Below are positions 36,063 to 59,515 of a stretch of DNA of 64,000 bases, in pieces (position 1 is the stretch's first letter; each line of letters starts with the position of its first letter). The DNA lies in the NCBI GenBank assembly GCA_964500985.1, contig CAZCRB010000002.1, forward strand, positions 36 through 64,035. The letters are read 5' to 3'. The DNA comes from an uncultured Eubacteriales bacterium (lineage in GTDB: Bacteria > Actinomycetota > Coriobacteriia > Anaerosomatales > PHET01). The notes beneath the pieces were generated by a model. It did not search any database. It saw only the letters and a list, made by a program, of their open reading frames with translations, and was not told the DNA's origin. Both the position numbers and the translations under genes were made by a program.

Positions 36063-36079
36063 TCAGTTCACCCCCTTCT

Positions 36080-39944: not shown

Positions 39945-40003
39945 TTGTAACGGTTGTTACATTACCTCTGGCTAATCCTATCGCGCCCGTCCGAGGCGGT
40001 CAA
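39945..40003 (-). promoter_or_regulatory. Hydrogenase operon promoter with palindromic operator
   Basis: TTGACC (40003-39998) N17 TAGGAT (39980-39975); operator TTGTAACGGTTGTTACAT at 39945-39962. Confidence 0.75.
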
Positions 40004-40041
40004 CGATAAGTTCGCTAATTCTCGACAGAATCTTCACGTTC

Positions 40042-41559
40042 TCAGCTGGTCGGCGGCTGGTCACCGGCGCGATCCGCGTACTTCTTGGAGAGCGGTGTCC
40101 GCGCGATGAACTCCTCGCTGTCGACCACGGGTGCCTCAAGGACACGTGCGATACGACGCAGCTCGGCGTCCTCGGTGCAGAAGAGCTTCGCGCGCTGTGC
40201 GACCGCCATGATGCCCGCGTCTCGCCAACTCAGCTCATAGCGCTCCTGCAGTGCGCGTGCATCCGACTCGGAGAACTCGACGGGATTCAGCAGTTCGGCG
40301 AGCGAGATGCCGTCCTGGGCGAGGCCCTTGAGGTCCTCGTAGTCCTCCGTCATGACCTCCCAGCGCACGCGGCGGATGTCCATGCGCGCGATCTCGCCTG
40401 CGGCGAACAGCGCGTACACGAAGTCAGGCGTGGCGAAGTAGCGGCGGCGGCGCAGCAACAGCAGCAGCGGCAGGAGCAGCAGCGGCGAGAGGCACAGCAG
40501 CCACCCGGTCGGCGTTGTGGGCGTCGGAATCGGGTTGGCGGCCGCCGGCCAGCCCCACACCTGGATGCGCCCGTTGGCGGTGTCGGCGATGAATATGCGG
40601 CGGCGGGCGTCGACCGACGTGTCGTTGGGGTAGCTGAACTGCCCCTCCAGCACGCCATGCTCGCCGAAGGAGACGACCTTCTCGGCCTTGCGAGCGTCCC
40701 AGATGGTGCCGTCGTGGGCGAGCGTGTCGATGACCACCAGACGGCGCGGCTCTTCCTTCTTGAGCTTGGGCAGGAAGTCGAACCCGCGCGGGAGTCCCTG
40801 CGTGATGACCATCCGCTTGTACTCGCCCGCCCGGTCGAAGACCTGGATGCGGCGGTTGTTGGAATCGGCGACCCAGACCTCGTTACCGATGACCTTGATC
40901 GAGTTGGGGAACTGGAAGACCCCGGGGCCCTCCGACGCCTCGTTGACGAGGCCGGCGGTGCCCACGCTACGACGGAACGTGCCGTCGGGCGCGAAGATGA
41001 GCATGCGGTGGCCGTTGAGTATCTCGGTCACGTAGAGGGTGCCGTCGGGCGCAAAGTCCAAGGCGACGGGCGCCCACTGGAAGCCCTGCGTATCGAACTT
41101 GGGAAGCTGGTCGGCGGGCAGCTTGGGATCGAACTGCTTCTTGAACTTGCCGTCCTTCGAGAAGATGAACACGCCCTTCTTGCGGCGGTCCGTCACGTAG
41201 TAGTCCCCCGTCTTGGGGTGCTGCGCGACGTAGAGCGGGACGAGCAGATTGCCCTTGCCCCAAGTCGCGATGTGCGTGCCGCGAGGCGTGAACACCTCGA
41301 TGGCGCCCTTGCGCGAATCGGTCACGAGGACCTTGTTGTCGGCGGAGAGCACCCCGAGCGGCCTGACCAGCTGGCTCTGCCCGGCACCCGAGAAGGAGTA
41401 CAGGTACTGCGGGGCGGGCAGCAGCTCGGCTTGGTTGAAGTCGATCTGCACACCGATCGTCCGCGTGTTGCGGTAGTTGACGTACGCGGCGCCGATGAGC
41501 GCCAGCAAGACGATGAGCGCGACTATCGCGATGATCTGACGGATTCGCCTGCGAGACAT
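40042..41559 (-). CDS. NHL-repeat beta-propeller protein with two TM anchors and a PIN-like C-terminal tail (copy 1)
   Basis: NHL repeats (FQFPNSI..VADSNNRRIQVF; FSYPND..IADTANGRIQV); TM at both ends; tail RDAGIMAVA..CTEDAELRR. Confidence 0.85.
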   Translation of the reverse strand: MSRRRIRQIIAIVALIVLLALIGAAYVNYRNTRTIGVQIDFNQAELLPAPQYLYSFSGAGQSQLVRPLGVLSADNKVLVTDSRKGAIEVFTPRGTHIATWGKGNLLVPLYVAQHPKTGDYYVTDRRKKGVFIFSKDGKFKKQFDPKLPADQLPKFDTQGFQWAPVALDFAPDGTLYVTEILNGHRMLIFAPDGTFRRSVGTAGLVNEASEGPGVFQFPNSIKVIGNEVWVADSNNRRIQVFDRAGEYKRMVITQGLPRGFDFLPKLKKEEPRRLVVIDTLAHDGTIWDARKAEKVVSFGEHGVLEGQFSYPNDTSVDARRRIFIADTANGRIQVWGWPAAANPIPTPTTPTGWLLCLSPLLLLPLLLLLRRRRYFATPDFVYALFAAGEIARMDIRRVRWEVMTEDYEDLKGLAQDGISLAELLNPVEFSESDARALQERYELSWRDAGIMAVAQRAKLFCTEDAELRRIARVLEAPVVDSEEFIARTPLSKKYADRAGDQPPTS

Positions 41560-41601
41560 GCTTGCGCTGTCCTCTCCGTGAAGGGAACTTCGGGATCGCT
41601 T

Positions 41602-42636
41602 CTACTTGCCGAGTGACGCCTGGAGCTGCGCGATCTCTTTGTTGCTCGTGTCGAGCTTCGCGGCCTCGGTGAGGACCTGCTTCGCGCCCTTCTTGTCGCC
41701 CTTGGCGATGAGGATCTTGGCGTGAAGTATCGCAGCATCGACATCGCTCGGCTCGAGCGCGCGTGCGAGCAGGACCGCCTCGACCGCCTCGTCCAAGCGC
41801 TTGTCGGCGTAGGCGGCCTGGGCCTGCTTCAGCGCGTCTTCGCCGCTACCGAGCTTCTCGAGGGCCTTGCGCGGCAGGTCGGCCTCGGGGGCGAGGTCCG
41901 CGGCTTTGCGCAGGTGCACGGCCGAGTTGATCTTGTCGTTGCGCGCCAGGAGGATGATCCCGTAAAGGTAGTGGGCCTCAGCGTAGTTCGGATCGAAGGC
42001 GAGGGCGGCATCAAGCTGCTCGAGGGCGGCGTCATCGTCCTCGAGCCCGTGGAGGGACTGCGCGAGGAGGTAGTAGGTGTCGGACGCGTCCTTGCGGATG
42101 CGCAACGACGCCTTGAAGAAGCCGGCGGCATCCTCGTAGCGCTTGTCGTCGAGGGCGATCTCGCCCAGATGGAACAGCGCGGTCTCGCGGCGCTGGTTGA
42201 TGTTCTCCATCGTCTGGCCCTCGGTCAGCTCGACGACCTTGGTGAAGTAGCGCTCTGCGTTGGCGGTGTCCTTGGTCTCCATGGCGACGAGGCCGAGGTC
42301 GAGGTACGCGCCCGTGTGCTTGTTGTCTAGCTTGATGGCGGCCTTGAACTGCTCGGTGGCATCACGGTAGACGCCGGCCGAAGCGAGCGCCTCACCGTAG
42401 CGAACGCGGGCCGCCGCGCTGTTGGGGTTCTTCTTGACGAAGTTGCGGAGCTCGACCAGCGCGCGCTGGGCCGGGGTGGCCGTCGCCTCGACGCGAGTGC
42501 TCTGCCAGATGGTGTAGCCGAACAGCGCGGCAAGGCCGAGGACTCCGGCGACGAGCGCGATGATGACGTAGCGAAGAAGCGAATCGGTCCGGTCGGAACG
42601 GACGTCGGGCGTGGCGCCCGATGCGTGTTCTGTCAT
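41602..42636 (-). CDS. Membrane-anchored TPR protein (copy 1)
   Basis: N-terminal TM; multiple TPR repeats (ALAFDPNYAEAHYLYG). Confidence 0.88.
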   Translation of the reverse strand: MTEHASGATPDVRSDRTDSLLRYVIIALVAGVLGLAALFGYTIWQSTRVEATATPAQRALVELRNFVKKNPNSAAARVRYGEALASAGVYRDATEQFKAAIKLDNKHTGAYLDLGLVAMETKDTANAERYFTKVVELTEGQTMENINQRRETALFHLGEIALDDKRYEDAAGFFKASLRIRKDASDTYYLLAQSLHGLEDDDAALEQLDAALAFDPNYAEAHYLYGIILLARNDKINSAVHLRKAADLAPEADLPRKALEKLGSGEDALKQAQAAYADKRLDEAVEAVLLARALEPSDVDAAILHAKILIAKGDKKGAKQVLTEAAKLDTSNKEIAQLQASLGK

Positions 42637-42694: not shown

Positions 42695-42741
42695 TTGTAA
42701 CTGTTGTTACGAACGATACTCGGCGCCCACAGGAGCGTCAA
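42695..42741 (-). promoter_or_regulatory. TPR-NHL (copy 1) promoter with palindromic operator
   Basis: TTGACG (42741-42736) N17 TATCGT (42718-42713); operator TTGTAACTGTTGTTACGA at 42695-42712. Confidence 0.75.
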
Positions 42742-42766: not shown

Positions 42767-43603
42767 CTAGGGAAGCTGCTTGACCACCTCGGTGATCGCG
42801 CTCTTGAGCGAGTCCGGCGAACCGCTCTTGACCGCCGCCATCTCCACGGCCACCATCACCGAGGCGTCCGTGAAGCCTACGACCGCGAAACGACGGCCAT
42901 CGGTACCGAAGTACACGTCGTGCCCGTTGACCTTGAAGGTCGCGGCGTCCTTGGGATAGCGCTGCTTGACCTGACTGGTCAGCGCCTTCTGCGCATCCGC
43001 GCCGGTCCGGAACTGCTCCGCCGAGATCACGAGCTGGACGACATCGGCGTTGCCGGCCGGCAGGTACTGACGCGTGACGGACAAGGCATCGTTGGCTGCC
43101 TTTCGCGCGGTGTAGCCCGTGATCGCATCGGGAACCCACGCCGCCAACGCACCATTGGGCGTGACCCCCGGATCCGGCGTGGACGTGGGATTCTTGGTCC
43201 CACCCGAGCCCGACGACCCCTTGTCGGATGTCGGCGACTTGCCGGCGTTGATCGCGTCGAGCTGGGATGCGGCGCTCTTGAAGCCGGCGTCCCCGGCGAC
43301 AACCGCGGCGAGCTTCTCTTTGGCGGTGGTCAGATCGCCCGCCGCGAGCGCGCTCTGTGCCTGTGCATAGAGGGCCTCGAGCTTGCGATGCTTGTCGCAC
43401 ACGATCGTCTTCTCCTTGACGCGGTACTTGGCCGCGTCCTTCGAAGGTACCTCGATGGTGCGCACGCTGTCGGAGACCTCGTGCCCGTAGGTGCACATGA
43501 CGCGCTCGCCGGTCTGAACCTCGACTTTGCGCTGACACCCGGCGAGCGAACCCGCGCTCAGCGCGAGAACGAGTGCGAGCACCGCGAGCAGTGGTCTTCT
43601 CAT
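42767..43603 (-). CDS. Lipoprotein, paralog of 29280..30074
   Basis: Lipobox LAGC after ATG 43603 (ATGA overlap with the upstream gene); C-terminal YFGTDGRRFAVVGF. Confidence 0.8.
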   Translation of the reverse strand: MRRPLLAVLALVLALSAGSLAGCQRKVEVQTGERVMCTYGHEVSDSVRTIEVPSKDAAKYRVKEKTIVCDKHRKLEALYAQAQSALAAGDLTTAKEKLAAVVAGDAGFKSAASQLDAINAGKSPTSDKGSSGSGGTKNPTSTPDPGVTPNGALAAWVPDAITGYTARKAANDALSVTRQYLPAGNADVVQLVISAEQFRTGADAQKALTSQVKQRYPKDAATFKVNGHDVYFGTDGRRFAVVGFTDASVMVAVEMAAVKSGSPDSLKSAITEVVKQLP

Positions 43604-45045
43604 CCCTGGTCCTTCCGCGGCCCGCGCGCGAGCAGCGCGAGCGCAATCGAGAACACCGCGGCGGCCGCACCGACCACGCACGACACGAGTGCGACGGGCG
43701 CGGCCACGGGTTCGAGAACAAGAGCAGCATACTCCGTGCCGTAAGCCTGCTGAACCTCGGCCGGCACAAACGAACTCCACGTCTGAAGCGTGACGGCAGT
43801 GAGCATCGGGTACGCGGCAGCGCACGCCAACGACGCGATTCCCGCCGAGACGACCGCGCCGGTCGAGCGCTCAGGCAGCGCGAGGGCAGCGGTCAGCGCA
43901 AGCGCGCACGCTGCGAAGACCAGCCATCCGCCCGCCGACGCGTACCCCGGCTGCAGCCACGTTCCGCTGAAGAACGCCTCGCCGGTCCCCCGCCCCTCGG
44001 CTGTGGCGCGGATCGCCGGCAGGAACAGGGCCACAGACGAGCCGACGAAGGCCACGGACGCGATGGCGATGGCGATGGCTGCAAGGTTGCGTCGGCCACG
44101 GCCGATCTTGTCGACTGACCGGGATGGCGCCTGCGCGAACCAGACCGCCGCCGCGGAGGCGAGCACCGCCGCAGCTCCGGACAACGCGCCGGCCCACGAA
44201 ACGGGATCGGGACCGAAAGACGCCGTCGCCTTCTCCAGCAGGGTCAGCGCGCTGACCGCGACCGGAGCGACGAGCAGGGCCGTTGAGGCGCGCGCTACAC
44301 CCTGCGCGCCGACGGACCGGACCCACCCCATGGCGAACACCGCGACCGCCAACCCCAGCGCGATGAGTCCTGGCCAGGCGCGCTCAAGGGACGTGGACTG
44401 CCCTGCGACCGCAGGGAGCGCCCAGAGCAGTGCCGGAACCGCCGCGCCGATGACCGCCAGAGCGACGGTGCGACGTGCGCCGATTCTGAGCGCCACCACC
44501 CGCAGAGAGATCGACGCGACCGCAAACGCCGCACCCGCGGCGAGCATGACCAGCTCGGGCACTGGGAACTTGATGAAGGGCGAGAACGAACTCGGGCGCT
44601 CCCAATTGGCGAGCAGCGCCGCTGAGCCCGCCAGTGCGCCGACGGCACCCGCAATCCCCGAGAGTGCCGTGCGAGGCTTGTGGGCGAAGAACGCCAGCGC
44701 CACGCACAGAGCGCCCCACGCCACCGTGGTGAAGAACAGGACCTCGGAGCCGGACGGCGCATCGCTGGACCGCTGGGCAAGGGCGATGAGGGGGGCGGCC
44801 CAGAACGCGGTGGCGCCCGCCACTACGGCGAGGACGAGCTCGGAACGGCTTTGCGCCCAGAGCGACCGCATCGGCACGAGGCCCTCAGCGATCAGGACCA
44901 CGACCAGAGCCACTCCCAGAGACGCCCCCAGTATCAGGGCGTCCGGAAGACCTTCCATGAGGACCGTCGTGATGACGAATGTCGCCGCCGCCCCGACGAG
45001 GGACGAAGCGATTGCCAGAAGGTGTTTGGGGGCGAATCGGGCCAC
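43600..45045 (-). CDS. Polytopic membrane protein, EamA/DMT-like with C-terminal extension
   Basis: About 13-14 hydrophobic segments; GVARASTALLVAPV DMT-like motif. Confidence 0.65.
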   Translation of the reverse strand: MARFAPKHLLAIASSLVGAAATFVITTVLMEGLPDALILGASLGVALVVVLIAEGLVPMRSLWAQSRSELVLAVVAGATAFWAAPLIALAQRSSDAPSGSEVLFFTTVAWGALCVALAFFAHKPRTALSGIAGAVGALAGSAALLANWERPSSFSPFIKFPVPELVMLAAGAAFAVASISLRVVALRIGARRTVALAVIGAAVPALLWALPAVAGQSTSLERAWPGLIALGLAVAVFAMGWVRSVGAQGVARASTALLVAPVAVSALTLLEKATASFGPDPVSWAGALSGAAAVLASAAAVWFAQAPSRSVDKIGRGRRNLAAIAIAIASVAFVGSSVALFLPAIRATAEGRGTGEAFFSGTWLQPGYASAGGWLVFAACALALTAALALPERSTGAVVSAGIASLACAAAYPMLTAVTLQTWSSFVPAEVQQAYGTEYAALVLEPVAAPVALVSCVVGAAAAVFSIALALLARGPRKDQG

Positions 45046-45074
45046 GGTCCTCCTTGCATGCCGTTCTCATCCGA

Positions 45075-45112
45075 CGGAAAGGGCCGGGGTCGCGTGCCCC
45101 CCGGCCCTTCCG
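45075..45112 (-). terminator. Hairpin after OmcS-like gene 2
   Basis: Inverted repeat GGAAAGGGCCGGGG..CCCCGGCCCTTCC. Confidence 0.65.
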
Positions 45113-45141
45113 ACGGTATCAGATTGTGATGCGAGAACCGG

Positions 45142-46446
45142 CTACTTGTTGTGGCAGGACTCGCACACGCCCCGGTTGTCCAGGCGCAACAGCGCGCTGG
45201 GGCTGGCCGGGAACTGGTTGCGGGCGACGCCGTCAGTGTCGACGACGAGGGTGCCCGTGGCCGCGTAGCCCGTCATCGCTGCCGCAGTACCGTGGGCACG
45301 GTGGCAGGTCAGGCACTCGATCCAGTCACTGTCCGTCTTGGCGGGTGCGCCGACGGTCGAGGACTCGTTGAGCGAGTTGGCAAGCGGGATCGGCAGCGCA
45401 CCGATCACCATGGACGACTTGTCAGGACCGTTGTAGGTGCTGAGCTCGACGTTCATGGGGTGGCGGTGGCGCAGACGGTAGTTGCCGCCGTCGCCAGCGT
45501 CGTACATGGTCGCGGAGGCCGCGTACGTAGTGCCATCGGAGCGCGTGATCACGCGAACCGGCTGCAGGTACGTGCTGTGGCACCCGGTGCACCAACCGCT
45601 CATGCCCTTGGTCGGGTCCTCGACGAGGTTGCCTGCGGCAGCCTGCTTCATGTCGTAGCCCTTGGCGTAGCGCGGCGTGGTGTAGTCAGGCTGGTAGCTC
45701 GGGTAGGCCGTGTGCAGGCGGAAGCCGCCGGCGGGCCAGCCGCGCTCAGTCGACGAGACGAAGCCGTCGGGATCCGGGTTCACCGAGCTGTTGGTGTTGT
45801 CGTAACCACCCACGCGGTTGCCGTTGACCATCGACTTCAGGATGCGGTAGTTGGCGCTGCCGTGCGGGTCGTGGCAGGTCGCACAGTCCATCTTGACTGC
45901 GGTCGACTCACCCTTGTCGCGCGGCTTGCCGTTGGTCGGATCGGTACCAGGCGAACCATCAGTGGTCGCGTCGGTGGCCGACTTGCCGTAGTAGCCACCG
46001 CCGTACGCACCCCACGACGCACCCTGGTACATGTGCACCGAGGAGACCGGCACGGTGACCGTGGCCCCGAGCGAGGTGTCGTACTTCTGCATGGTGCTGA
46101 AACCGCCGCCGTTGAGGACACCGTTCTGGACACCGTAGAGCGTGCCCTCGTAGATGCCGTTCTCGACGTTGGTGTCGGCGCCCTGCGCGCTGCCGTCGTG
46201 GCAGGCGTAGCAGAACTGGTACATCTCGGTCGCGGTGCTCACGAGCAGTGCGCTGTGGTCGTTCGCGCCAGCGTCCTGCCACGTGATCGAGCTGACGGAG
46301 GTGTGCGCCCGGTGACAACCGGCACATGCGTCGGTATCGGCCACGTAGTTGCCGTGGATCGCGAAGTTGGCGTTCGCGGCGACAGGGACCATGAGCGCCA
46401 CGAGGGCGGCCAGGGCGAATGCGAGTGCGAATCTCTTGGTAGTCAT
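45142..46446 (-). CDS. Secreted OmcS-like hexaheme cytochrome c (formate dehydrogenase module)
   Basis: Signal peptide; 6 CxxCH in 434 aa; HGN..CAGCHRAH, CHDPHG..YRIL, MSGWCTGCH, RHP, CLTCHRAH; C-terminal CESCHNK. Confidence 0.82.
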   Translation of the reverse strand: MTTKRFALAFALAALVALMVPVAANANFAIHGNYVADTDACAGCHRAHTSVSSITWQDAGANDHSALLVSTATEMYQFCYACHDGSAQGADTNVENGIYEGTLYGVQNGVLNGGGFSTMQKYDTSLGATVTVPVSSVHMYQGASWGAYGGGYYGKSATDATTDGSPGTDPTNGKPRDKGESTAVKMDCATCHDPHGSANYRILKSMVNGNRVGGYDNTNSSVNPDPDGFVSSTERGWPAGGFRLHTAYPSYQPDYTTPRYAKGYDMKQAAAGNLVEDPTKGMSGWCTGCHSTYLQPVRVITRSDGTTYAASATMYDAGDGGNYRLRHRHPMNVELSTYNGPDKSSMVIGALPIPLANSLNESSTVGAPAKTDSDWIECLTCHRAHGTAAAMTGYAATGTLVVDTDGVARNQFPASPSALLRLDNRGVCESCHNK

Positions 46447-46449
46447 GCC

Positions 46450-47388
46450 CTACACCTCCCCACCGGTCAGCGCTTCGGACTCGTTCTTGGTCCGGCGGGC
46501 GGAAAGCGCCGCAAGACCGCCGACGACGAGCGTCGGCAGGAGAAGCTTAGCACCAGTGCCCGACAGCATGCTCGACGCCATCGGAGCGACGTGATCCTCG
46601 ATGAACGGATCAGCCTTGGGCGGCGCGAGCAGGAAGTTCTTGCTCGCCCAGAACATCGAACCGCTACCGATCCAGTTCTTGGTGCCGGCGGCGGGACCCG
46701 AGGTGAGGGTGTAGCCGTTGGCCGGATCCTCGAGGTACTTGATGATGTTGTCGCGGGCGTCCCACTTCATCGCCTTGGCCGGGCAGCTCGACACGCACGC
46801 CGGCTCATGAGCGAGCTCGGGCACGATCGGCACCGGCAGCGCGCCGGTGCTCAGAGTGATGCTGCTGACCCAGTTGCCCGAGGCGTCCTTCACGGCACGC
46901 GTGGGCAGGGCGGTCGCGGGATCGACCACGCCATCGGCGCCGGCGCGACCGTTGCACAGGGTGCACTTGTTCATCTTGACGTCGGTGGTGTCCTCGTAAG
47001 CGACGCCGACCTTGGGATAGCCGCCGCGCTGACAGCCGAACTCACACGGCTTGGGACCCGGGCCCACTTTGCAGACGTTGGGCTTGCACAGCGCCTTGTC
47101 GACGCTGACCGCACCGGTTGCCTCTTTCTTCATGGCACCGAGCGGGCAGGCCTTGACGCAGGGCGGGTCGTAACAGTGCCAGCAGGTGTAGCGCATGAAC
47201 GCGCCCATATCCGAACGCTTGAGGCTCTTGATCGCCAGCCGCTGACGCGGGTTGACGACGGAGCGCTGCGGGATCACCTGGGCGATGTTGTCGGGGTTCT
47301 TGAGACCCCACTCGCGCTTACAGGCGATGACACAGCCGTTGCAGCGCATGCACTTATCGACATCCTGGAATACTGCCATCACAGTCAT
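46450..47388 (-). CDS. fdhB: Formate dehydrogenase iron-sulfur (beta) subunit with C-terminal TM
   Basis: CMRCNGCVIAC, CWHCYDPPCVKACP and KCTLC..PACVSSCP motifs; C-terminal hydrophobic helix as in FdnH. Confidence 0.85.
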   Translation of the reverse strand: MTVMAVFQDVDKCMRCNGCVIACKREWGLKNPDNIAQVIPQRSVVNPRQRLAIKSLKRSDMGAFMRYTCWHCYDPPCVKACPLGAMKKEATGAVSVDKALCKPNVCKVGPGPKPCEFGCQRGGYPKVGVAYEDTTDVKMNKCTLCNGRAGADGVVDPATALPTRAVKDASGNWVSSITLSTGALPVPIVPELAHEPACVSSCPAKAMKWDARDNIIKYLEDPANGYTLTSGPAAGTKNWIGSGSMFWASKNFLLAPPKADPFIEDHVAPMASSMLSGTGAKLLLPTLVVGGLAALSARRTKNESEALTGGEV

Positions 47389-47401
47389 CGGTCACACCTC
47401 C

Positions 47402-51480: not shown

Positions 51481-51599
51481 GAAGAACACATATGCGGACG
51501 AGCCTCCCTTACCCTGGGTCGTAGCGCGACAACGAGCGGGCCATTGCCGGTGGCTTCCACTCAGGACTCCCCGTTTGCCGGCGAGAAGCCCGTCGCGCC

Positions 51600-51698: not shown

Positions 51699-51754
51699 GT
51701 CCATATCCTGTTGTATCAAGCGGTCGCACTGCTCGTCGAAGAGACTTCTGTGCC

Positions 51755-51815
51755 TTGTAACACGAGTTACAAGTACCGCACGTTCACCTTACTCTCGGGC
51801 GCAACCCCGCGTCAA
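51755..51815 (-). promoter_or_regulatory. FDH operon promoter with palindromic operator
   Basis: TTGACG (51815-51810) N18 TAAGGT (51791-51786); perfect-arm operator TTGTAACACGAGTTACAA at 51755-51772. Confidence 0.75.
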
Positions 51816-53402: not shown

Positions 53403-54396
53403 CGGTCACCCGTTTCAGTCCCGCTTCTGCGTCCTTGTTGCCCGGGTCCGCCGCCAACGCGCGACGGTACGCGAGCGCTGCCGCGTTCAGGTTCTTGCTC
53501 TGTTCGTAGAGCTGGCCCACCGCGAGCAGCGCAGGCGCCGACGCCGGATCGAGCGCTGCGGCGACGCGAGCCTCTACCAGCGCGGCCTTGGGGTCACTCG
53601 CTTTGAGGCTCTGCGCCTTGGCCAGACGCGCGCTGACGGTTCCCAGCTTCGCGAGCGCCTCAGCCGGCTTCTCGGCCTTGGGCGCCGAGTCCGCGGAGGT
53701 GCGGAAGTGCTCGGCTGCGCCCGCGACGTCACCGTCGGCGAGAAGCACGTTGCCGTAGTCGTAGTTGGCCTCGGGCATCTTGGGGTCGAACAGCAGCGTC
53801 GCCTCGAGCTCCTCGCGGTACTCGTCTTCGCTGCCGAGCTCGCGGAAGCAGACGGCGAGCGCGTAGTGGGAGTCGGACGCGTCACGGCGGATGCGGATGG
53901 CCTCCTTGAAGTTGCGCGCGGCCTCCTCGTACTCCTTCTGCTCCATCAACGCGGTGCCCAGATAGAAGTACGCGGTCTCCAGCTCGGCGTTCTGCCGGGT
54001 CATGTCCGTGCCCTGGAGCAGGTCGACGACCTTCTGGAAGTAGTTCTCACCGACCTTGTACTGCTTCTGCTTCAGCGCGATGAACCCGAGACCGGACAGC
54101 GCCGGCGCGTAGTCCTTGCGCACCTTGAGGATCTGCTCGTACTGCGTGGCGGCCTCGCGGTCGCGCCCGGCGACCGAGTAGGTCTGGGCGAGGCGCATAC
54201 GCGTGTCGATATCGTTGGGATTGGCGCGTACCTGCGCGATGAGCCCGCCGATGGCTCGAGCCGCCGGCGTGGAAGCCTCCACCGTGCGATTGCTCTGCCA
54301 TACCGAGTAGCCGAGAAAGACGCCGAGCCCCAGAACGAGGACGGCGACGACCGCGATGGCGGCATCGAGAGGACGTACCGACTTCAGGTCGGGCAC
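53392..54396 (-). CDS. Membrane-anchored TPR protein (copy 2)
   Basis: N-terminal TM; TPR repeats (LLFDPKMPEANYDYG); AAGGAG RBS before GTG 54396. Confidence 0.88.
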   Translation of the reverse strand: MPDLKSVRPLDAAIAVVAVLVLGLGVFLGYSVWQSNRTVEASTPAARAIGGLIAQVRANPNDIDTRMRLAQTYSVAGRDREAATQYEQILKVRKDYAPALSGLGFIALKQKQYKVGENYFQKVVDLLQGTDMTRQNAELETAYFYLGTALMEQKEYEEAARNFKEAIRIRRDASDSHYALAVCFRELGSEDEYREELEATLLFDPKMPEANYDYGNVLLADGDVAGAAEHFRTSADSAPKAEKPAEALAKLGTVSARLAKAQSLKASDPKAALVEARVAAALDPASAPALLAVGQLYEQSKNLNAAALAYRRALAADPGNKDAEAGLKRVTDGS

Positions 54397-54466
54397 GCGA
54401 AGCACTCCTTACCCTGTGAGCGCCGGGCCTGCCGGGGCCCGTGCGGCGCGCATCGTTTCGAGATCG

Positions 54467-54504
54467 AATCTAGCGACGCGCCAACATTGTGTCAATTGTT
54501 ACGA
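54467..54504 (-). promoter_or_regulatory. TPR-NHL (copy 2) promoter with palindromic operator
   Basis: TTGACA (54495-54490) N17 TAGATT (54472-54467); operator TTGTGTCAATTGTTACGA at 54487-54504 covers the -35. Confidence 0.7.
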
Positions 54505-54550: not shown

Positions 54551-56167
54551 TCAGATGTTCAGATCCGAGTGGCACTGGATGCACAGCTCGGCTCCCGGAT
54601 ACGGGGCGATCACCTGGTTCTGGTAGTCGACCGCTCCGTGGCAGCCGTAGCACAAGCGAACATCGTGCCCCGCGTCGGGAAGCCCACCGGTACTGGTCTG
54701 ACCTTCATGCTGCTTGGACGCCCCTGACGTGGTGAACCCGATGTGGCAGTCGTCGCAGGTGTAGGGCTTGCCCTTCTTCTTCGCGACATTGAAATGCACC
54801 GCGTGCTCGGCGAAGCCCTTGTTCTTGAGCTTGGTGGGCTGATTGGTCTTCATCTGCGGATGGCACGGCGTGCAGTTCTCCTTGACGAGCTCGGCTCGCG
54901 ACACCGACGCGTGGTGGCACTTCTGACACGAATCGCGATTCGTGTGGCACACATTGCAGTCCTCGTTGGGAACGCCCGGCGCGGGTTTGTGGTTCTCGAT
55001 CCAGCCGACCGGGTGCGGCATGACCGTCTTGTGGCAGCGCTTGCACGACTTGTCCGTGTGGCACGAACCGCAGGCGCCCTTGCCGTCGAGGAACTTGCCC
55101 CCGTGCTTGGCGCGCCAGTCAGCGCGCTTGTGGTCGGTGGGGATGACCGCGACGCCCGGCGCATTGGGGCTCGTCTTCTTGCCGGTATGGCAGCCGACAC
55201 AGAAGGCCGAAGGGTGACACATGGCGCAGTAGGCGGGGTCCTGGTTTGCGATGACCTTGTGCGTGCCCTTGATGAACCGCTTGGTGTGGTTCGCGGGCGT
55301 CAGGTCGAACTCCTTGGGGTGACACGCTTCGCACTTCTCGGTGGCCACCTGGCCCTGGCCGTTGTGCTGCAGGCCGTGACAGCGGTAGCACGACTGCATG
55401 TCGGGAACGACGACCCGCTCCTCTTTGTGCGCGAAGGTCGGGTGGCACGCCTCGCACGAGTAGTTGCGCTGCAGGTGCGTCGCGTGCGCGAAGATCAGGC
55501 GGCCGGGCGTGATCGCGTCGAGGTCCGGGTGGCAGTAGACGCACTGTGACATCGTGACCGGGCCGTCAGGATAGATCAGGATCGACGGGCCCTTGGGGCG
55601 CTCGCCCACGGTGGGATGATAGATGTTGGGGATCGCCGGGACCGGCGGCACCGACTTGGCGTGGCACTCGTTGCAGTCCTTGGGCGCGTCGTGACACATC
55701 ATGCAGCGGTTCACGCCACCGCGCTTGGCGGCATCCGCGTGCGGGACCTTGGCCCAGTCCTTCGAGTGGGTGGTCGGACGCAGCTCGAACGACGGCGTGT
55801 GGCAGTCTTCGCACTTGCCGGTCGCGAGCTCCCCCTGGGGACCGTGCTGGACGCCGTGGCAGGCGAAGCACACGTCCATGGGAACGCGCTCGGTCACCCC
55901 GTCGCGGTGGGGCATGCGCGAATGGCAGCCGTCGCAACTGATGAGCAGGTGGTTACCGTGGCTGAACGTCAGCCCGGGGACGTTGACGTCGCCCAGATCG
56001 AGATGGCACGGCGCACACTGCGAAGGCGAGATGGGCGCGCCGGTGTCGATGGGCTGATCGGTCGTGGCCGCATCGGTGAAAGCCGCGGGCGCAAGCAGGA
56101 AGGCGGCCGCGAGCACTATCGCGGCCACCCCCCAGAGCACTATCCGTATGTCGTGGCGGCGAATCAC
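54551..56167 (-). CDS. 20-heme cytochrome c
   Basis: N-terminal signal/TM; 20 CxxCH; internal duplication of a six-heme unit. Confidence 0.92.
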   Translation of the reverse strand: MIRRHDIRIVLWGVAAIVLAAAFLLAPAAFTDAATTDQPIDTGAPISPSQCAPCHLDLGDVNVPGLTFSHGNHLLISCDGCHSRMPHRDGVTERVPMDVCFACHGVQHGPQGELATGKCEDCHTPSFELRPTTHSKDWAKVPHADAAKRGGVNRCMMCHDAPKDCNECHAKSVPPVPAIPNIYHPTVGERPKGPSILIYPDGPVTMSQCVYCHPDLDAITPGRLIFAHATHLQRNYSCEACHPTFAHKEERVVVPDMQSCYRCHGLQHNGQGQVATEKCEACHPKEFDLTPANHTKRFIKGTHKVIANQDPAYCAMCHPSAFCVGCHTGKKTSPNAPGVAVIPTDHKRADWRAKHGGKFLDGKGACGSCHTDKSCKRCHKTVMPHPVGWIENHKPAPGVPNEDCNVCHTNRDSCQKCHHASVSRAELVKENCTPCHPQMKTNQPTKLKNKGFAEHAVHFNVAKKKGKPYTCDDCHIGFTTSGASKQHEGQTSTGGLPDAGHDVRLCYGCHGAVDYQNQVIAPYPGAELCIQCHSDLNI

Positions 56168-56192
56168 GAAGTCTGCCGCAGCTCCTTTGTCG

Positions 56193-57488
56193 TCACTGAC
56201 CGCGTATGCGGTTGATCACCTGCATCAGCGGATTCTCCTCGGCGGCCGACTGCTTCTGGTGGATCAGAGCGGCCGCGTCCGCACCGAACTGCTCGTCCGA
56301 ACCGCTGTGGCAACCTTCCTGACCACAGGTGGTTCCGACGTTCTTCGCGTTGACCGAGGACTCGGGGTCGGCCGAGGGCAGGACCTCGTGGGCCTCGTGG
56401 CACTGCCAGCAGGCAGGAGCATCCGGCGCGCCGGCCTTGTAGGCCTTGCCGTGATAGTAGTCGTCGTAGGTGTCGTAGTCATCACCGTGCTGCTTGCAGC
56501 GTGCGCAGGTGCGATAGGCGGCCGAGTGCATCCGGGCCTTGGCGGCCTCGGTGTTCGACTTGTTGATGAAGTGGCCACCGTGGCACGAGGCACAGGTCGC
56601 GGCATCGAAGTTGCCCTCGTTGACCTGCTTGCCGTGGATCGACTTCTCCCACTCGGGCACCGGGGCAGACAGCGAGGTCTCCTCGGACGCGCGGTGGCAG
56701 TCAGCGCAGGCGTAGCCGGCGTTGACGTTCCACAGCGGGGTGCGCGAGGGCTTGTCGTCATAGCGGTAGTCCACGTGGCACTGCTGGCAGCTCAGGTCGC
56801 GGTGCGCCGAGAGCTCGAGACCCGAGACCTGGAACGACTTGCTGCCGCTCATGGACTGCTTGAGGAGCTGCGACTGCTCGTGGCAGCTCATGCAGCCGTC
56901 GCCCGCGTCGTAGTCCCAGCTCTTGGGCGCCCACTCCACGAGCTCGCGATCGTGGCAGTCGGTGCAGGTCTCAGGGGTGTGGCACATCGCGCACCGGGTG
57001 TTGAACGCCTCCTCGGCGGGCTTCACGTGCGGCTCGCCCTTCCACCCGAACGTGTGGAACGCGGGGCGCAGGCGCTCGCGCGGGGTGACGTGGCAGTCCT
57101 CGCACTTGCCCGTGGCGAGGATGCCCATGGAGCCGTGCCGCAGCCCGTGGCAGTCGAAGCAGCCCTTCATCGTGGGGCGCTCGGTACCCTCGGGACGGTG
57201 CGGGAAACGCGAGTGGCACGAGGAGCACTGCAGCACGATGTGGTTACCGTGGCTGAAGATCACCTCGGACGAGTAGTTCTTGGTCTTGGCGATGTTGCCG
57301 TGGCACGCGCGACACGTCTGCTCGACGACCGGGGCACCGAGGTCGATGACCACGCTGTTCCCACTGTCGAGCGGCGTCGATACGTCAGCCGCGAACGCGG
57401 CACCCGCCCCCAGAACGGCGAAGAACGCCGATGCGGCGAGCGCGAGGGCGAGCAGCCTGCCGGGGCGTGCTCGGAACCGAAGCGCCAT
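56193..57488 (-). CDS. Multiheme cytochrome c (11 CxxCH + 2 atypical)
   Basis: Signal peptide from ATG 57488; atypical CARCKQH and CGQEGCH motifs. Confidence 0.9.
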   Translation of the reverse strand: MALRFRARPGRLLALALAASAFFAVLGAGAAFAADVSTPLDSGNSVVIDLGAPVVEQTCRACHGNIAKTKNYSSEVIFSHGNHIVLQCSSCHSRFPHRPEGTERPTMKGCFDCHGLRHGSMGILATGKCEDCHVTPRERLRPAFHTFGWKGEPHVKPAEEAFNTRCAMCHTPETCTDCHDRELVEWAPKSWDYDAGDGCMSCHEQSQLLKQSMSGSKSFQVSGLELSAHRDLSCQQCHVDYRYDDKPSRTPLWNVNAGYACADCHRASEETSLSAPVPEWEKSIHGKQVNEGNFDAATCASCHGGHFINKSNTEAAKARMHSAAYRTCARCKQHGDDYDTYDDYYHGKAYKAGAPDAPACWQCHEAHEVLPSADPESSVNAKNVGTTCGQEGCHSGSDEQFGADAAALIHQKQSAAEENPLMQVINRIRGQ

Positions 57489-57538
57489 GTTGTCCCTTAC
57501 CTTTCGCGTTGGGGTCCCCGCGAAGCGCGGACCCATCC

Positions 57539-58465
57539 TTACCCCTGTCCGGTGATCCACGAGCCGATCTGCTGGACCGCTCCGCCGATGGCGTTTCTGG
57601 CGGCATCGATGGCCGACCAGAACGGAATCGATGCGTAGACGTCCTCTTTGCTGTGAACAAGCTGGCCGTACTCGACAAACGCCTCATCGGTGTTGATGTG
57701 GCACTTGTCCTCCATGCTGCACGTCTCGGGCAGCCTCACGGGGTTGACCATCGAGTTGCGGTTCTTGGCCGGCAGGATTTCGTGGGTGCCGTGGCAGTCC
57801 CAGCATGCCGGCGAATCGTAGGCGCCGCGCTGGTAGGCGGCGCCGTGGTAGTAGTCCATGTAGGTGGTCGCGAACTCCTCGTGGCACTGCCCGCAGACGT
57901 CGAGCGCCGAGGAGTGATAGACGGCCTGGGCCGCCGTATCCTCTTTGCTCGGGATCCCGTGGCCGCCGTGGCAGTCGCCGCACAGCGGCACGCGGGCGGG
58001 CTTGCCGGCCGCGACGCGCGCCGCGGCCGTGGCACTGGCGTCCTCGCCCGGCTTACCGGCCGGCGAGTGGGCACTCGAGGCGTAGGCCGAGAAGGCTTCG
58101 GCGTGGCAGTTCTTGCACGCCAGTTTGGCGACCGCACGCCAGTCCTCGCCGTTGACGACGTTGTCGTGCGGCGTCTTGTAGGCGAAGTCGATGTGGCAAC
58201 CGGTGCACGCGACGTCTTTGTGAGCCGACTCGTTGAGGATCTCGGTGTTCACATAGATCGACGTGGTCGAGTCAACGGTCGTCTTCACGAGGTTGGGATC
58301 GGAGTGGCAGACCGTGCAGCCCGACTTGCCCTCCGTGGGGAGCGTGAAGTCGAGGTTGTAGGTCTGGGTCGCGGGTACGGCCGGCTTGGCCGCCGCCCCC
58401 GCGACAGCGGGAACCGCAAGCAGGACCGCGAGGGCCGCGACTGCTATGAGGGTCCGAAAGCGCAC
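57539..58465 (-). CDS. Multiheme cytochrome c (6 CxxCH + 1 atypical), CbcL-heme-domain-like
   Basis: Signal peptide from GTG 58465; SAH..CTGCH, CGDCHGGH, YHG..ACWDCHGTH motifs. Confidence 0.88.
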   Translation of the reverse strand: MRFRTLIAVAALAVLLAVPAVAGAAAKPAVPATQTYNLDFTLPTEGKSGCTVCHSDPNLVKTTVDSTTSIYVNTEILNESAHKDVACTGCHIDFAYKTPHDNVVNGEDWRAVAKLACKNCHAEAFSAYASSAHSPAGKPGEDASATAAARVAAGKPARVPLCGDCHGGHGIPSKEDTAAQAVYHSSALDVCGQCHEEFATTYMDYYHGAAYQRGAYDSPACWDCHGTHEILPAKNRNSMVNPVRLPETCSMEDKCHINTDEAFVEYGQLVHSKEDVYASIPFWSAIDAARNAIGGAVQQIGSWITGQG

Positions 58466-58490
58466 GTGCGGGTCTCCGATGCCGGGTGTG

Positions 58491-59345
58491 CTAGACGTGC
58501 TCGGCCGTGGCGTAGGCCGGGACCGTCTCGGGTGCGTGAACGTCGTCCTCGCCGTGGCCGTCATGATCGCCGTGGCCGTCGTCCTCGTGGCCCGCATTGC
58601 GGTCGAGGGCACCCAGGCCGAAGAAGTCGAGGAAGGCCGGGAAGTCCTCGGTGACCGACAGGTACACGTGGATGGTGGTCAGGATGATGAACAGCCAGTT
58701 GATCACATAGTGGGCGGTACGCACCCACCACACGTTGGTCGCGCCGATGAGCGTGGCGACCAGCTGCTGGAAGCTCATGTCGATCAGCGGGAACTGGAAG
58801 CGCCACAGCATCAGGCCGGTGATGGCCTGCAGGATCAGCAGCGGCACGAACAGGATGTAGGTGCCCTTCTGCATCACGTTGTACTTGCCGAGGTGCGGCT
58901 TGGAAGGCTTCACGAAGATGTAGTAGAGGATGACCTTGGGCGCGGTCGTGATGTCACGCTTGGTGACCGCGAACTCCTTGTAGTCACGCTGGCGCGACGC
59001 GAAGGCGTACCAGAGGCGCACGACGAGGTTGATGATGACGATGATCATCGCGATGTAGTGCACCCAGCGCATCCCGGTCCGCCCGTAGTTGAAGAACGGG
59101 AAGCGGATGTACATGCCGGAGATCGCCAGAGCGATCATCGCCGCCACGTGCTGGAAGTGCAGGACCTTGGGCAGCGCGGGCGGATGGCTGTCATGGTGCG
59201 GCCATGCCCACTCCTTGCCGAACCTGCGCTTGGCGCGACCCGTCAGGATGTTACCGACGAAGTGCGCGGATAGGCCGAGCAGCACCACCGTGTACAGCGA
59301 TGTGAACACGACGTCGAGCCAGACATTCAGTTGCGTCAGTCCCAC
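58491..59345 (-). CDS. Cytochrome b subunit (HyaC/FdnI-like di-heme b, quinone-interacting)
   Basis: TM histidines (HFQH, WVHY, TAHY, TIHVY) and GKYNVMQK motif; His-rich C-terminal tail. Confidence 0.88.
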   Translation of the reverse strand: MGLTQLNVWLDVVFTSLYTVVLLGLSAHFVGNILTGRAKRRFGKEWAWPHHDSHPPALPKVLHFQHVAAMIALAISGMYIRFPFFNYGRTGMRWVHYIAMIIVIINLVVRLWYAFASRQRDYKEFAVTKRDITTAPKVILYYIFVKPSKPHLGKYNVMQKGTYILFVPLLILQAITGLMLWRFQFPLIDMSFQQLVATLIGATNVWWVRTAHYVINWLFIILTTIHVYLSVTEDFPAFLDFFGLGALDRNAGHEDDGHGDHDGHGEDDVHAPETVPAYATAEHV

Positions 59346-59466
59346 GAACTGACACCCCCTACTCCCTATGAGTCACCCGGACGCCGGGCGGTCCACTTCC
59401 CAGTCCGCTGCCCGAGAGGGCCACCGGCCCGCGTTGTCCGGACGCGTGCGGCACGATCTGGAAAGC

Positions 59467-59515
59467 TTGTAACAGCAGTTACGAGCAGAATAGGCACGGC
59501 GAGCGCGAGTGTCAA
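59467..59515 (-). promoter_or_regulatory. Cytochrome b/multiheme operon promoter with palindromic operator
   Basis: TTGACA (59515-59510) N17 TATTCT (59492-59487); operator TTGTAACAGCAGTTACGA at 59467-59484. Confidence 0.8.

What the first reader, a model, noticed from the sequence alone, without database searches (positions are those of the whole stretch)
39945..59515. Five-promoter regulon marked by an 18-bp palindrome TTGTAAC-N4-GTTACRA
Sites lie at 39945, 42695, 51755, 54487 and 59467, upstream of the hydrogenase, both TPR-NHL pairs, the FDH and the cytochrome b/multiheme operon. Each overlaps or lies within about 14 bp downstream of a TTGAC(A/C/G)-N17/18-TAnnnT promoter, which is a repressor geometry. 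The motif resembles but differs from the Rex box (TTGTGAA-N4-TTCACAA) and also fits TGTA-N8-TACA of NtcA-type Crp factors. This ties the island together as one regulated system. No regulator gene is in the window, so its identity is inference; a redox-sensing Rex variant is my preferred guess.
Basis: partly seen in the sequence, partly recalled or inferred. Interest (0 to 1): 0.8.

Follow-up and report, generated by a model that had tools for sequence, protein, structure and literature searches.

The report
Conserved repressor operator on respiratory island
An 18-bp DNA palindrome sits on five strong promoters of a hydrogenase, formate dehydrogenase and multiheme-cytochrome gene island and is conserved at the same promoters in about 80 related uncultured Coriobacteriia genomes, so it is almost certainly a repressor binding site, but the repressor is unidentified and is probably not Rex as first guessed.

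Summary
Five copies of wTGTAAC-N4-GTTACAw lie at 39945, 42695, 51755, 54487 and 59467. They score 27-34 bits against 7 bits for the next best hit. All are intergenic, and each is fused to a minus-strand TTGACn-N17/18-TAnnnT promoter.

In 79 loci from related genomes (uncultured Coriobacteriia/Anaerosomatales-type MAGs) the palindrome recurs at the same operon heads: hydS 34 times, the cytochrome b operon 22, TPR-NHL 7, FDH 5. Of 103 strong sites, 99 are intergenic. About 90 of 100 start 0-14 nt after the -10 hexamer. A second class, at TPR promoters, merges one half-site with the -35. Sequence is conserved rather than base pairing, so this is a protein operator in repressor geometry.

The Rex guess is not supported. 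The clade's Rex keeps the Arg-Lys pair that reads TTGTG, but the motif has A at that position in 99 of 100 sites. None of 13 rex loci carries the palindrome. The same palindrome is used next to CRP/FNR, TetR, MarR, PadR and ChrB_N genes in other phyla, so the motif alone cannot name the factor. No regulator is encoded in the window.

Extras: a Moco riboswitch lies in series with the FDH operator, a conserved Rfam-unknown terminator-containing leader precedes hydS, the FDH contains selenocysteine, and the NHL proteins carry PIN-like cytoplasmic tails.

The parts
39945..39962 (-). Operator O1 (minus strand ATGTAACAACCGTTACAA), 12 nt downstream of the -10 of the hydrogenase promoter
   Evidence: orthologous site upstream of hydS in 34 loci
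39975..40003 (-). Promoter P_hyd: TTGACC-N17-TAGGAT
39686..39944 (-). hydS 5' leader. Conserved block GGGTCGGAGCCGGCAATCGGGCCC at 39905-39882; terminator arms at 39804-39795 and 39765-39756; T-run 39755-39749; RBS 39704-39697; true start ATG at 39685 (MAITRRQF, TAT signal)
   Evidence: no Rfam match
34770..39685 (-). Hydrogenase operon: [NiFe(Se)] small subunit 38261-39685, large subunit 36080-38236, multiheme cytochrome 34770-36062. It probably continues into 33150-34535, 30130-33153, 29280-30074 and 27695-29275
   Evidence: Pfam/NCBIfam; conserved gene order
42695..42712 (-). Operator O2 (TCGTAACAACAGTTACAA), directly abutting the -10
42713..42741 (-). Promoter P_TPR-A: TTGACG-N17-TATCGT
40042..42636 (-). 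TPR (41602-42636) and NHL beta-propeller (40042-41559) pair A. The NHL protein has two TM helices and a PIN-like cytoplasmic tail
51755..51772 (-). Operator O3 (TTGTAACTCGTGTTACAA, perfect palindrome arms), 13 nt after the -10
51786..51815 (-). Promoter P_fdh: TTGACG-N18-TAAGGT
51587..51707 (-). Moco (molybdenum/tungsten cofactor) riboswitch between O3 and the FDH gene
   Evidence: Rfam RF01055, 57.6 bits against gathering score 36
42767..51283 (-). FDH-type operon: TAT signal and Fe4S4 domain 50630-51283, read through TGA (Sec, ...HQARI-U-HSSTV) into 47402-50629; 4Fe-4S subunit 46450-47388; multiheme cytochrome 45142-46446; unknowns 43600-45045 and 42767-43825
54487..54504 (-). Operator O4 (TCGTAACAATTGACACAA). 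The promoter-distal half-site doubles as the -35 TTGACA (54495-54490)
   Evidence: the same fused arrangement (ATGTAACTATTGACACAA) occurs at TPR promoters of L016, L022, L023, L030, L051
54467..54495 (-). Promoter P_TPR-B: TTGACA-N17-TAGATT
51843..54405 (-). TPR (53392-54405) and NHL (51843-53402) pair B
59467..59484 (-). Operator O5 (TCGTAACTGCTGTTACAA), 2 nt after the -10
   Evidence: orthologous site upstream of cytB in 22 loci
59487..59515 (-). Promoter P_cytB: TTGACA-N17-TATTCT
54551..59345 (-). Cytochrome b (58491-59345) and three multiheme c-type cytochromes (57539-58612, 56193-57560, 54551-56167)

Best explanation
The palindrome wTGTAAC-N4-GTTACAw is the DNA operator of a dimeric sequence-specific repressor encoded outside the window. 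Each of the five operons is driven by a near-consensus sigma-70-type promoter. The operator covers the region from just after the -10 hexamer to about +25, or at one TPR promoter the -35 hexamer. A bound repressor would therefore block RNA polymerase binding, open-complex formation or promoter escape. When an unknown signal releases it, the whole electron-transfer module would switch on together: Group-1 [NiFe(Se)] hydrogenase, Sec-formate dehydrogenase, cytochrome b with multiheme cytochromes, and the TPR/NHL accessory pairs. Shown: the sites, their statistics, their promoter geometry, their conservation at orthologous promoters across about 80 genomes, and that sequence rather than pairing is conserved. 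Inferred: that a protein binds, that it represses, and that the operons respond together. The factor's family is not identified. The resident Rex is unlikely, and a dedicated repressor of another HTH family is most likely. Two operons carry a second, RNA-level control in series: a Moco riboswitch on the FDH operon and a terminator-containing leader on hydS.
For: Five sites score 27-34 bits against a 7-bit background and 0.11 are expected by chance. In 79 orthologous loci there are 103 sites of >=20 bits, 99 of them intergenic in 88 %-coding DNA; the 4 exceptions lie at the 5' edge of ORFs that are probably over-called. Downstream genes are hydS 34, cytB 22, TPR 7, FDH 5 and the 29280-family 2. 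The frequency matrix of 100 sites has an almost invariant TGTAAC/GTTACA core and flanks with no information, so promoter homology by descent is excluded. About 90 of 100 sites have TTGACn-17/18-TAnnnT upstream, with the operator 0-14 nt after the -10 (modes 2-5 and 11-13); a distinct conserved class is fused to the -35. An independent promoter scan agrees. Arms do not covary at variable positions, and only 12 of 41 core deviations stay pairable. All ~28 clade hits of a collection-wide promoter+operator scan are island promoters. The three Thermoleophilia loci with NHL homologues lack the motif.
Against: No binding protein has been identified, and none is encoded in the window or recurrently next to the sites. 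There are no expression or TSS data, so promoter assignment rests on consensus matches. Position 10 of the site is T in 78 %, while its symmetric partner is A in only 40 %. This asymmetry is not explained by a simple symmetric dimer.
Confidence: 0.78

Rival explanations
1. The binder is Rex (a variant ROP box). The NADH/NAD+ ratio would then control the island.
For: The operator has the same 18-bp length, the same 7-4-7 architecture and the same outer TTGT/ACAA bases as the Rex box. The geometry is that of a repressor. Rex exists in this clade (Pfam-confirmed; 13 loci) and is clustered with NHL and multiheme cytochrome genes (also noted for Parvivirga hydrogeniphila in PMC9686372). No canonical Rex box was found in any clade locus, so the clade Rex's real box is unknown.
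Against: In Rex-DNA structures, Arg48 reads the first G and Lys49 the second G of TTGTG, and Arg60/Gly61 read the TT (PMC8836258). The clade Rex keeps all of these residues (AQVRKDLSY...GTRGIGY). Its recognition helix is nearly identical to that of an outgroup Rex that has a perfect canonical box upstream of its own gene (L095). The operator has A, not G, at position 5 in 99/100 sites and C, not A, at position 7 in 100/100. None of 13 clade rex loci has the palindrome near rex or its neighbouring cytochrome genes. No typical Rex targets appeared among the clade hits of the pattern scan.
Confidence: 0.13
2. The binder is a CRP/FNR-family protein of the HcpR2/NtcA kind, acting here as a repressor.
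For: The core GTAAC-N4-GTTAC is identical to the motif predicted for HcpR2 (PMC1274295). In low-GC Firmicutes and Bacteroidales loci the same palindrome lies directly upstream of CRP/FNR-like genes (L105, L108, L137, L174, L208).
Against: No CRP/FNR-like ORF was found in the window or in about 1.24 Mb of clade sequence. None of 100 sites is centred near -41.5 or -61.5; they lie at about -6 to +25 or about -35. No hcp gene is among the targets. The CRP/FNR probes were sequences recalled from memory, used only for detection.
Confidence: 0.1
3. The neighbouring LysR-type regulator, encoded just upstream of the Moco/Se genes and the cytochrome b operon, is the binder.
For: It is the only DNA-binding protein recurrently encoded beside the island: 15 of about 31 loci with enough upstream sequence, always on the same strand, and sometimes directly abutting the cytB promoter.
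Against: Its own upstream region has no resemblance to the palindrome; best PWM scores are negative, and it carries a Fur-type box instead. LTTR boxes are typically T-N11-A dyads near -65/-35 (established knowledge), not 7-4-7 palindromes at +1. It is not visible in the window and is absent from about half of the loci.
Confidence: 0.06
4. The palindrome acts as RNA: a 5'-terminal stem-loop that stabilises the mRNAs or binds an RNA-binding protein, for example the PIN-tailed NHL proteins.
For: Sites that start 11-14 nt after the -10 would be fully transcribed. The arms could form a 7-bp stem. The island encodes membrane proteins with PIN-like cytoplasmic domains.
Against: About half of the sites start 0-5 nt after the -10 or overlap the -35, so they are not, or only partly, transcribed. 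Pairing at variable positions is no more frequent than chance (40 vs 46, 38 vs 45, 44 vs 42), and only 12 of 41 core deviations remain pairable. The bases themselves are invariant, which is typical of protein-DNA reading.
Confidence: 0.03

Closest known systems
Rex operator (ROP), TTGTGAA-N4-TTCACAA, and the Rex redox regulon of Gram-positive bacteria
   Same: 18-bp 7-4-7 inverted repeat with TTGT...ACAA ends. The operator overlaps or follows the core promoter, which is repressor geometry. Targets are respiratory and hydrogenase genes.
   Different: The inner three bases are AAC/GTT instead of GAA/TTC, invariantly. The clade's Rex has unchanged base-contacting residues. There is no site at rex. 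The regulon appears confined to one gene island rather than being global.
HcpR2 (CRP/FNR family) motif GTAACnnnnGTTAC, predicted upstream of hcp in Clostridia, Bacteroides, Thermotogales and Treponema (PMC1274295)
   Same: Identical 14-bp core.
   Different: HcpR2 is a predicted activator of hcp with the regulator gene adjacent. Here there is no hcp, no adjacent CRP/FNR gene and no activator positioning.
Palindromes in front of chrB(N)-chrB(C)-chrA operons, seen here in 18 loci of many phyla
   Same: The same TGTAAC-N4-GTTACA palindrome just downstream of a TTGAC-N17-19-TAnnnT promoter.
   Different: The gene content differs (chromate resistance), and no ChrB_N gene is found in the window or any clade locus. 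Whether ChrB_N is the DNA binder there is itself untested.
TetR-, MarR- and PadR-type autoregulatory operators
   Same: The same palindrome abuts genes of these families in L148, L167, L152, L216 (TetR), L158 (MarR) and L191 (PadR). These are dedicated repressors with promoter-overlapping sites.
   Different: Those are single local operators next to the regulator gene. Here one operator type serves 3-6 promoters per genome and no such gene is adjacent.
Gram-positive LexA (Cheo) box, CGAAC-N4-GTTCG (own knowledge, not tested)
   Same: 5-4-5 architecture, differing by one base per half-site.
   Different: The targets are respiratory genes rather than SOS genes. G to T at the first core position is invariant here.

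Membership tests
Rex operator / Rex regulon | Operator sequence TTGTGAA-N4-TTCACAA (G at position 5, A at position 7) | tested here: not met
   Position 5 is A in 99/100 sites and position 7 is C in 100/100. There are 0 canonical boxes at <=2 mismatches in 1.24 Mb of clade loci plus the window.
Rex operator / Rex regulon | 18-bp 7-4-7 inverted repeat overlapping the core promoter (repressor position) | tested here: met
Rex operator / Rex regulon | A rex gene in the genome whose base-reading residues fit the operator | tested here: not met
   Rex is present in 13 clade MAGs, but R-K and R-G are retained as in canonical Rex. Presence in the window's own genome could not be checked.
Rex operator / Rex regulon | Operator at rex itself or at classical Rex targets | tested here: not met
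   0 of 13 clade rex loci. The outgroup L095 has a perfect canonical box upstream of its rex.
Rex operator / Rex regulon | NADH-sensitive binding of Rex to the site | not testable with these tools
   Needs EMSA with and without NADH/NAD+.
HcpR2-type CRP/FNR site | Core GTAAC-N4-GTTAC | tested here: met
HcpR2-type CRP/FNR site | Co-localised CRP/FNR-family gene and an hcp target | tested here: not met
   No CRP/FNR ORF in the window or clade loci. The targets are hydS, cytB, TPR and FDH.
HcpR2-type CRP/FNR site | Site centred near -41.5 (class II activation) | tested here: not met
   Site centres lie at about +3 to +16 or about -35.
Repressor operator at a sigma-70-type promoter (generic) | Dyad-symmetric site overlapping -35, -10 or +1, conserved in sequence at orthologous promoters and rare elsewhere | tested here: met
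Repressor operator at a sigma-70-type promoter (generic) | Demonstrated protein binding and derepression | not testable with these tools
   Needs pull-down/EMSA, reporter assays and RNA-seq.
ChrB_N-associated operator | Adjacent chrB_N / chrA genes | tested here: not met
   An HMM built from 10 ChrB_N proteins has no hit in the window or clade loci.
Moco riboswitch (RF01055), window 51587-51707 | Covariance-model score above Rfam's gathering threshold, upstream of a molybdoenzyme | tested here: met
   57.6 bits against 36, full-length match 1-135. The downstream gene is a Sec-FDH.
Intrinsic-terminator attenuator (hydS leader) | GC-rich helix supported by covariation, followed by a T-run, located between the promoter and the RBS | tested here: met
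   RNAalifold helix; closing pair CG10/AU9/GC5/GU2/UG2/UA1. A T-run follows. 32 of 46 leaders keep GGAGGTGG followed by a T-run. Ligand or protein control is untested.

The most novel reading that the evidence does not exclude
The palindrome is the operator of an as yet uncharacterised sensor-repressor that is neither Rex nor CRP/FNR. This factor switches the entire hydrogen/formate-to-multiheme-cytochrome electron-transfer island of OPB41/Anaerosomatales-type Coriobacteriia. It acts in series with two RNA devices: a Moco riboswitch on the FDH operon, and a new, Rfam-unknown attenuator leader specific to the Group-1 [NiFe] hydrogenase operon.
Probability: 0.5. Interest if true: 0.62.

Novelty: new member of a known kind. 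Interest (0 to 1): 0.5.

Why it matters
OPB41/Anaerosomatales are widespread subsurface Actinomycetota. Their iron reduction and their hydrogen and formate use have only recently been tied to cultured strains, and nothing is known about how these pathways are regulated. A single operator that marks every promoter of the hydrogenase, formate dehydrogenase and multiheme-cytochrome module gives three things: a sequence tag for finding the complete electron-transfer regulon in any genome of the group, a bait for fishing out the regulator, and a prediction that hydrogen and formate oxidation and extracellular electron transfer are switched together. The work also shows that a Rex-like or HcpR2-like box cannot be assigned to a regulator family by resemblance, because the same palindrome serves at least five families. 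The hydS leader is a separate lead to a possibly new cis-regulatory RNA for a [NiFe] hydrogenase.

Tried and rejected
1. Extending beyond the window on its 81.7-kb source contig with the look-up of encoding contigs. Two end genes were not on record, and the third returned only 2.3-kb Logan contigs.
2. Looking for the regulator in the window. Pfam/NCBIfam on essentially all ORFs found only che genes, a GGDEF protein and no HTH regulator.
3. Rex. Found in relatives, but there is no site at rex and the specificity residues are unchanged.
4. CRP/FNR. Not found in any clade sequence held.
5. LysR and Fur-family neighbours. No palindrome upstream of LysR, and the Fur-type box there is different.
6. 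The NHL protein's cytoplasmic tail as a DNA-binding domain. It is PIN-like, not an HTH.
7. Unknown island proteins. No family hits.
8. RNA 5'-hairpin reading. Rejected for lack of covariation and because of position.
9. A collection-wide promoter+operator scan to find an autoregulated regulator. It was truncated at 120 loci; all ~28 clade hits were island promoters and none preceded a regulator.
10. Reaching the cultured isolates (rex-less Anaerosoma tenue, rex-containing Parvivirga hydrogeniphila) through HydS homologues. No named isolate was among the 120 hits listed.
11. Weak PWM hits of the form TGCnnnnnnTGTCAC are CXXCH heme-motif codons, not sites.
12. The plus-strand ORF 42704-43744 facing O2 is an antisense artefact. 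The real gene is 42767-43825 (-), a paralogue of 29280-30074.

Full report
OBSERVATION. The window has 67 % G+C, and from about 27 to 64 kb almost all genes run on the minus strand. The exact pattern TTGTAAC-N4-GTTACRA occurs at 42695, 51755 and 59467. Allowing up to three mismatches to TTGTAAC-N4-GTTACAA adds 39945 (one mismatch) and 54487 (three). That gives 5 matches against 0.11 expected, and none of 100 shuffles reached 5. A position-weight matrix built from the five sites scores them at 27-34 bits, while the next best position in 64 kb scores 7.3 bits. All five lie in intergenic gaps.

GENES. Pfam, NCBIfam and direct reading identify the downstream minus-strand operons.
- A [NiFe(Se)]-type hydrogenase: small subunit (true start ATG 39685, MAITRRQF TAT signal), large subunit and a multiheme cytochrome.
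- A membrane TPR protein plus an NHL beta-propeller protein (pair A).
- A TAT-exported formate-dehydrogenase-type molybdoenzyme. Its apparent split at 50630 is a TGA inside ...HQARI-U-HSSTV, the classic selenocysteine motif. It is followed by a 4Fe-4S subunit, a multiheme cytochrome and two unknown proteins.
- A second TPR+NHL pair (pair B).
- A cytochrome b plus three multiheme cytochromes.

Upstream of the cytochrome b operon lie a Se/S-carrier protein, a SclA-like cysteine desulfurase/selenocysteine lyase, and Moco genes (MoCF, MOSC, MoaA). No DNA-binding regulator is encoded anywhere in the window.

PROMOTER GEOMETRY. Read on the minus strand, each site is attached to a near-consensus promoter: TTGACC-17-TAGGAT, TTGACG-17-TATCGT, TTGACG-18-TAAGGT, TTGACA-17-TAGATT and TTGACA-17-TATTCT. 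The operator starts 12, 0, 13 and 2 nt after the -10 hexamer at four sites. At 54487 the deviant half-site (TTGACACAA) is itself the -35 hexamer. An independent consensus scan of 39650-59600 found five promoter-like sites (2.1 expected), and four of them are these promoters.

CONSERVATION. Homologues of the NHL protein come from uncultured Actinomycetota. An alignment-based scan of one-genome-per-species contigs returned 79 loci, nearly all labelled Coriobacteriia or Anaerosomatales, or mislabelled 'Eubacteriales'.
- Scanning these loci gave 103 sites of at least 20 bits. Of these, 99 are intergenic although the loci are 88 % coding. The four exceptions lie at the 5' edge of ORFs that my crude caller probably over-extended.
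- The genes downstream of the sites are hydS in 34 loci, the cytochrome b operon in 22, TPR-NHL in 7, the FDH in 5 and a homologue of 29280-30074 in 2.
- Gene order is conserved: [LysR][Moco/Se genes] site cytB-cytochromes (site) TPR-NHL site hydS-hydL-cytochrome-unknowns.
- Three Thermoleophilia loci with more distant NHL homologues lack the motif.
- The frequency matrix of 100 sites in gene orientation is w-T-G-T-A-A-C-w-n-y-T-G-T-T-A-C-A-a. The core is essentially invariant and the flanks carry no information. The similarity is therefore maintained by selection on the palindrome, not inherited from duplicated promoters.
- About 90 of the 100 sites have TTGACn-17/18-TAnnnT upstream, with the operator 0-14 nt after the -10. 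A separate, conserved class at TPR promoters (ATGTAACTATTGACACAA) fuses one half-site with the -35.

DNA OR RNA? A 7-bp hairpin at the mRNA 5' end is conceivable for the sites that are fully transcribed. However, about half of the sites overlap the -10/+1 or the -35. At the variable positions the two arms pair no more often than independent assortment predicts (40 vs 46, 38 vs 45, 44 vs 42). Only 12 of 41 deviations in the core stay pairable. Base identity is conserved, not pairing. This is a protein-DNA operator in repressor position.

WHO BINDS?

Rex. A phmmer screen used Rex, CRP and FNR sequences recalled from memory, as probes only. It found no CRP/FNR-like ORF and one Rex in the window plus 1.24 Mb of loci. 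Pfam confirmed the Rex. Thirteen further rex loci of the clade were fetched.
- None of them has the palindrome or a canonical Rex box near rex or the adjacent NHL and multiheme genes. A Gemmatimonadaceae outgroup, by contrast, has a perfect TTGTGAAATTCTTCACAA about 50 nt upstream of its rex.
- In the T. maritima Rex-DNA structure, Arg48 reads the first G and Lys49 the second G of the half-site, and Arg60/Gly61 read the TT in the minor groove (PMC8836258).
- The clade Rex keeps all of these residues (AQVRKDLSY...GTRGIGY), and its recognition helix is nearly identical to the outgroup's.
- The operator nevertheless has A at the Lys-read position in 99 of 100 sites and C where Rex boxes have A.
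- Rex is therefore unlikely, but not excluded, because no canonical box was seen in the clade either.

CRP/FNR. The core is identical to the HcpR2 motif GTAACnnnnGTTAC (PMC1274295). However, no site is in an activator position, no hcp gene is a target, and no such regulator was found nearby.

LysR. The LysR gene accompanies the island in 15 of about 31 informative loci, but its own upstream region has no trace of the palindrome.

The NHL tail. The NHL proteins' roughly 130-residue cytoplasmic tail, which JGI labels 'nucleic acid-binding', folds as a PIN domain (pLDDT 95; best Foldseek hits PAE2754, VapC21, Nob1 and SMG6). It is not an HTH.

Collection-wide scan.
- The ~28 hits from this clade are all island promoters and none precedes a regulator gene.
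- This suggests that the regulon is essentially the island, and that the regulator is not autoregulated with this architecture.
- In other phyla the same palindrome abuts CRP/FNR-like genes (5 loci), TetR (4), MarR (1) and PadR (1). ChrB_N-domain genes occur in 18 of these pattern-hit loci, with the palindrome directly beside the gene in about 10, usually heading chrB(N)-chrB(C)-chrA operons.
- The palindrome is thus a recurrent solution used by several regulator families and cannot identify its reader. No ChrB_N gene exists in the clade sequence held.

LITERATURE. The paper describing Anaerosomatales mentions the Group 1i hydrogenase, the multiheme clusters, a molybdopterin-oxidoreductase cluster and a Rex gene in one cytochrome cluster of Parvivirga hydrogeniphila that is absent from Anaerosoma tenue. 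It describes no operator or regulon (PMC9686372). I could not reach the isolates' sequences, so the clean test, whether a rex-less genome keeps the palindrome, remains open.

SECOND-LAYER CONTROLS.
- Between operator O3 and the FDH gene lies a full-length Moco riboswitch (RF01055, 57.6 bits against 36). The order is promoter, operator, riboswitch, gene.
- The 260-nt hydS leader is conserved in 36 aligned genomes. It has a block cGGGTyGGAGCCGGCAC...CCC, followed by a helix GCCrCCTCC...GGAGGTGGC and a T-run just before the RBS.
- RNAalifold recovers that helix, and its closing pair covaries (CG 10, AU 9, GC 5, GU/UG 4, UA 1).
- The block occurs 52 times in 2.29 Mb, 46 of them within 400 nt upstream of a hydS start.
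- Rfam has no match even at E <= 10. This looks like a hydrogenase-specific transcription attenuator of unknown trigger.

VERDICT. The regulon-and-repressor interpretation is well supported by comparative evidence. The Rex attribution is not supported, and the regulator remains unidentified. As a kind of thing, a repressor operator defining a regulon, it is ordinary. As an instance, it is new and useful for an understudied group, and it comes with a possibly new RNA leader.

Noticed in passing
window 39686-39944 (minus strand); block 39905-39882, terminator arms 39804-39795 and 39765-39756, T-run 39755-39749: The hydS 5' leader carries a strongly conserved block (GGGTyGGAGCCGGCAC...CCC) and a covariation-supported intrinsic terminator just before the RBS. 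It is conserved in 36 aligned genomes, is specific to hydS leaders (46 of 52 occurrences in 2.29 Mb) and has no Rfam match. It is a candidate new attenuator or riboswitch for a [NiFe] hydrogenase operon.
   Followed up: partly
window 51587-51707 (minus strand): A Moco riboswitch (RF01055, 57.6 bits) lies between operator O3 and the FDH start, so that operon is under protein and RNA control in series. The ORF 51043-51729 (-) listed mechanically is therefore spurious.
   Followed up: yes
window 50627-50635 (minus strand), within 47402-51283: The formate-dehydrogenase-type catalytic subunit contains an in-frame TGA in ...HQARI-U-HSSTVAG, i.e. selenocysteine. A Se/S-carrier gene (59539-59784) and a SclA-like selenocysteine lyase/cysteine desulfurase (59781-60962) lie nearby.
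   Followed up: partly
window 40042-41559 and 51843-53402 (minus strand): The NHL beta-propeller proteins have an N-terminal TM helix, an extracytoplasmic propeller, a second TM helix (WLLCLSPLLLLPLLLLLRRRR) and a roughly 130-aa cytoplasmic PIN-like domain (AF2 pLDDT 95; Foldseek PAE2754, VapC21, Nob1). A membrane-tethered PIN domain paired with a TPR protein in every electron-transfer module is unusual and unexplained.
   Followed up: partly
L098, L102, L103, L119, L120, L132, L135, L138, L150, L156, L172, L178, L181, L190-L192, L194, L200: In many phyla the same TGTAAC-N4-GTTACA palindrome, downstream of a consensus promoter, heads chrB(N)-chrB(C)-chrA-type operons or P-type ATPase loci. It is a candidate operator for ChrB_N-type chromate or metal regulators.
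   Followed up: partly
window 34627-34661 (minus strand), between 34770-36062 and 33150-34535: After a hairpin that follows the cytochrome gene there is a half-operator, TTGTAACAACGGTGCACAA (6.5 bits), overlapping the -35 region of a perfect TATAAT. It may be an internal promoter with a degenerate site for the distal part of the hydrogenase cluster.
   Followed up: no
L014, L022, L027, L030, L049, L055, L064, L079: region between the divergent Fur-family and LysR genes: A conserved Fur-type box (AAGTGAGAAnnnTTaTCACTT) lies between a Fur-family gene, which is next to a CbiM/NikM-like transporter, and the LysR gene upstream of the island. It is probably a nickel or metal uptake regulon and is unrelated to the palindrome.
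   Followed up: no
L046:1011-1649 and L082-L094: In this clade rex follows a TPR/O-antigen-ligase-like gene with almost no gap and is followed by another NHL-repeat gene and two multiheme cytochromes. Neither a canonical Rex box nor the palindrome occurs in these loci, so what this Rex binds is unknown.
   Followed up: partly
L101, L193, L201 (Chloroflexota/Dehalococcoidia): The same promoter plus palindrome precedes a DUF1800-DUF1501(-NHL) operon. This is a different target set with the same operator type.
   Followed up: no
window 4036-4109 (minus strand): A tRNA gene (Rfam 67.9 bits) overlaps the 5' part of the mechanically listed ORF 3285-4166. That ORF's start must therefore lie further downstream.
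   Followed up: no
window 42767-43825 and 29280-30074 (minus strand): Both electron-transfer modules end with members of the same unknown protein family (28 % identity over 180 aa, E 7e-10). In L023 and L064 the 29280-type gene has its own copy of the operator.
   Followed up: partly
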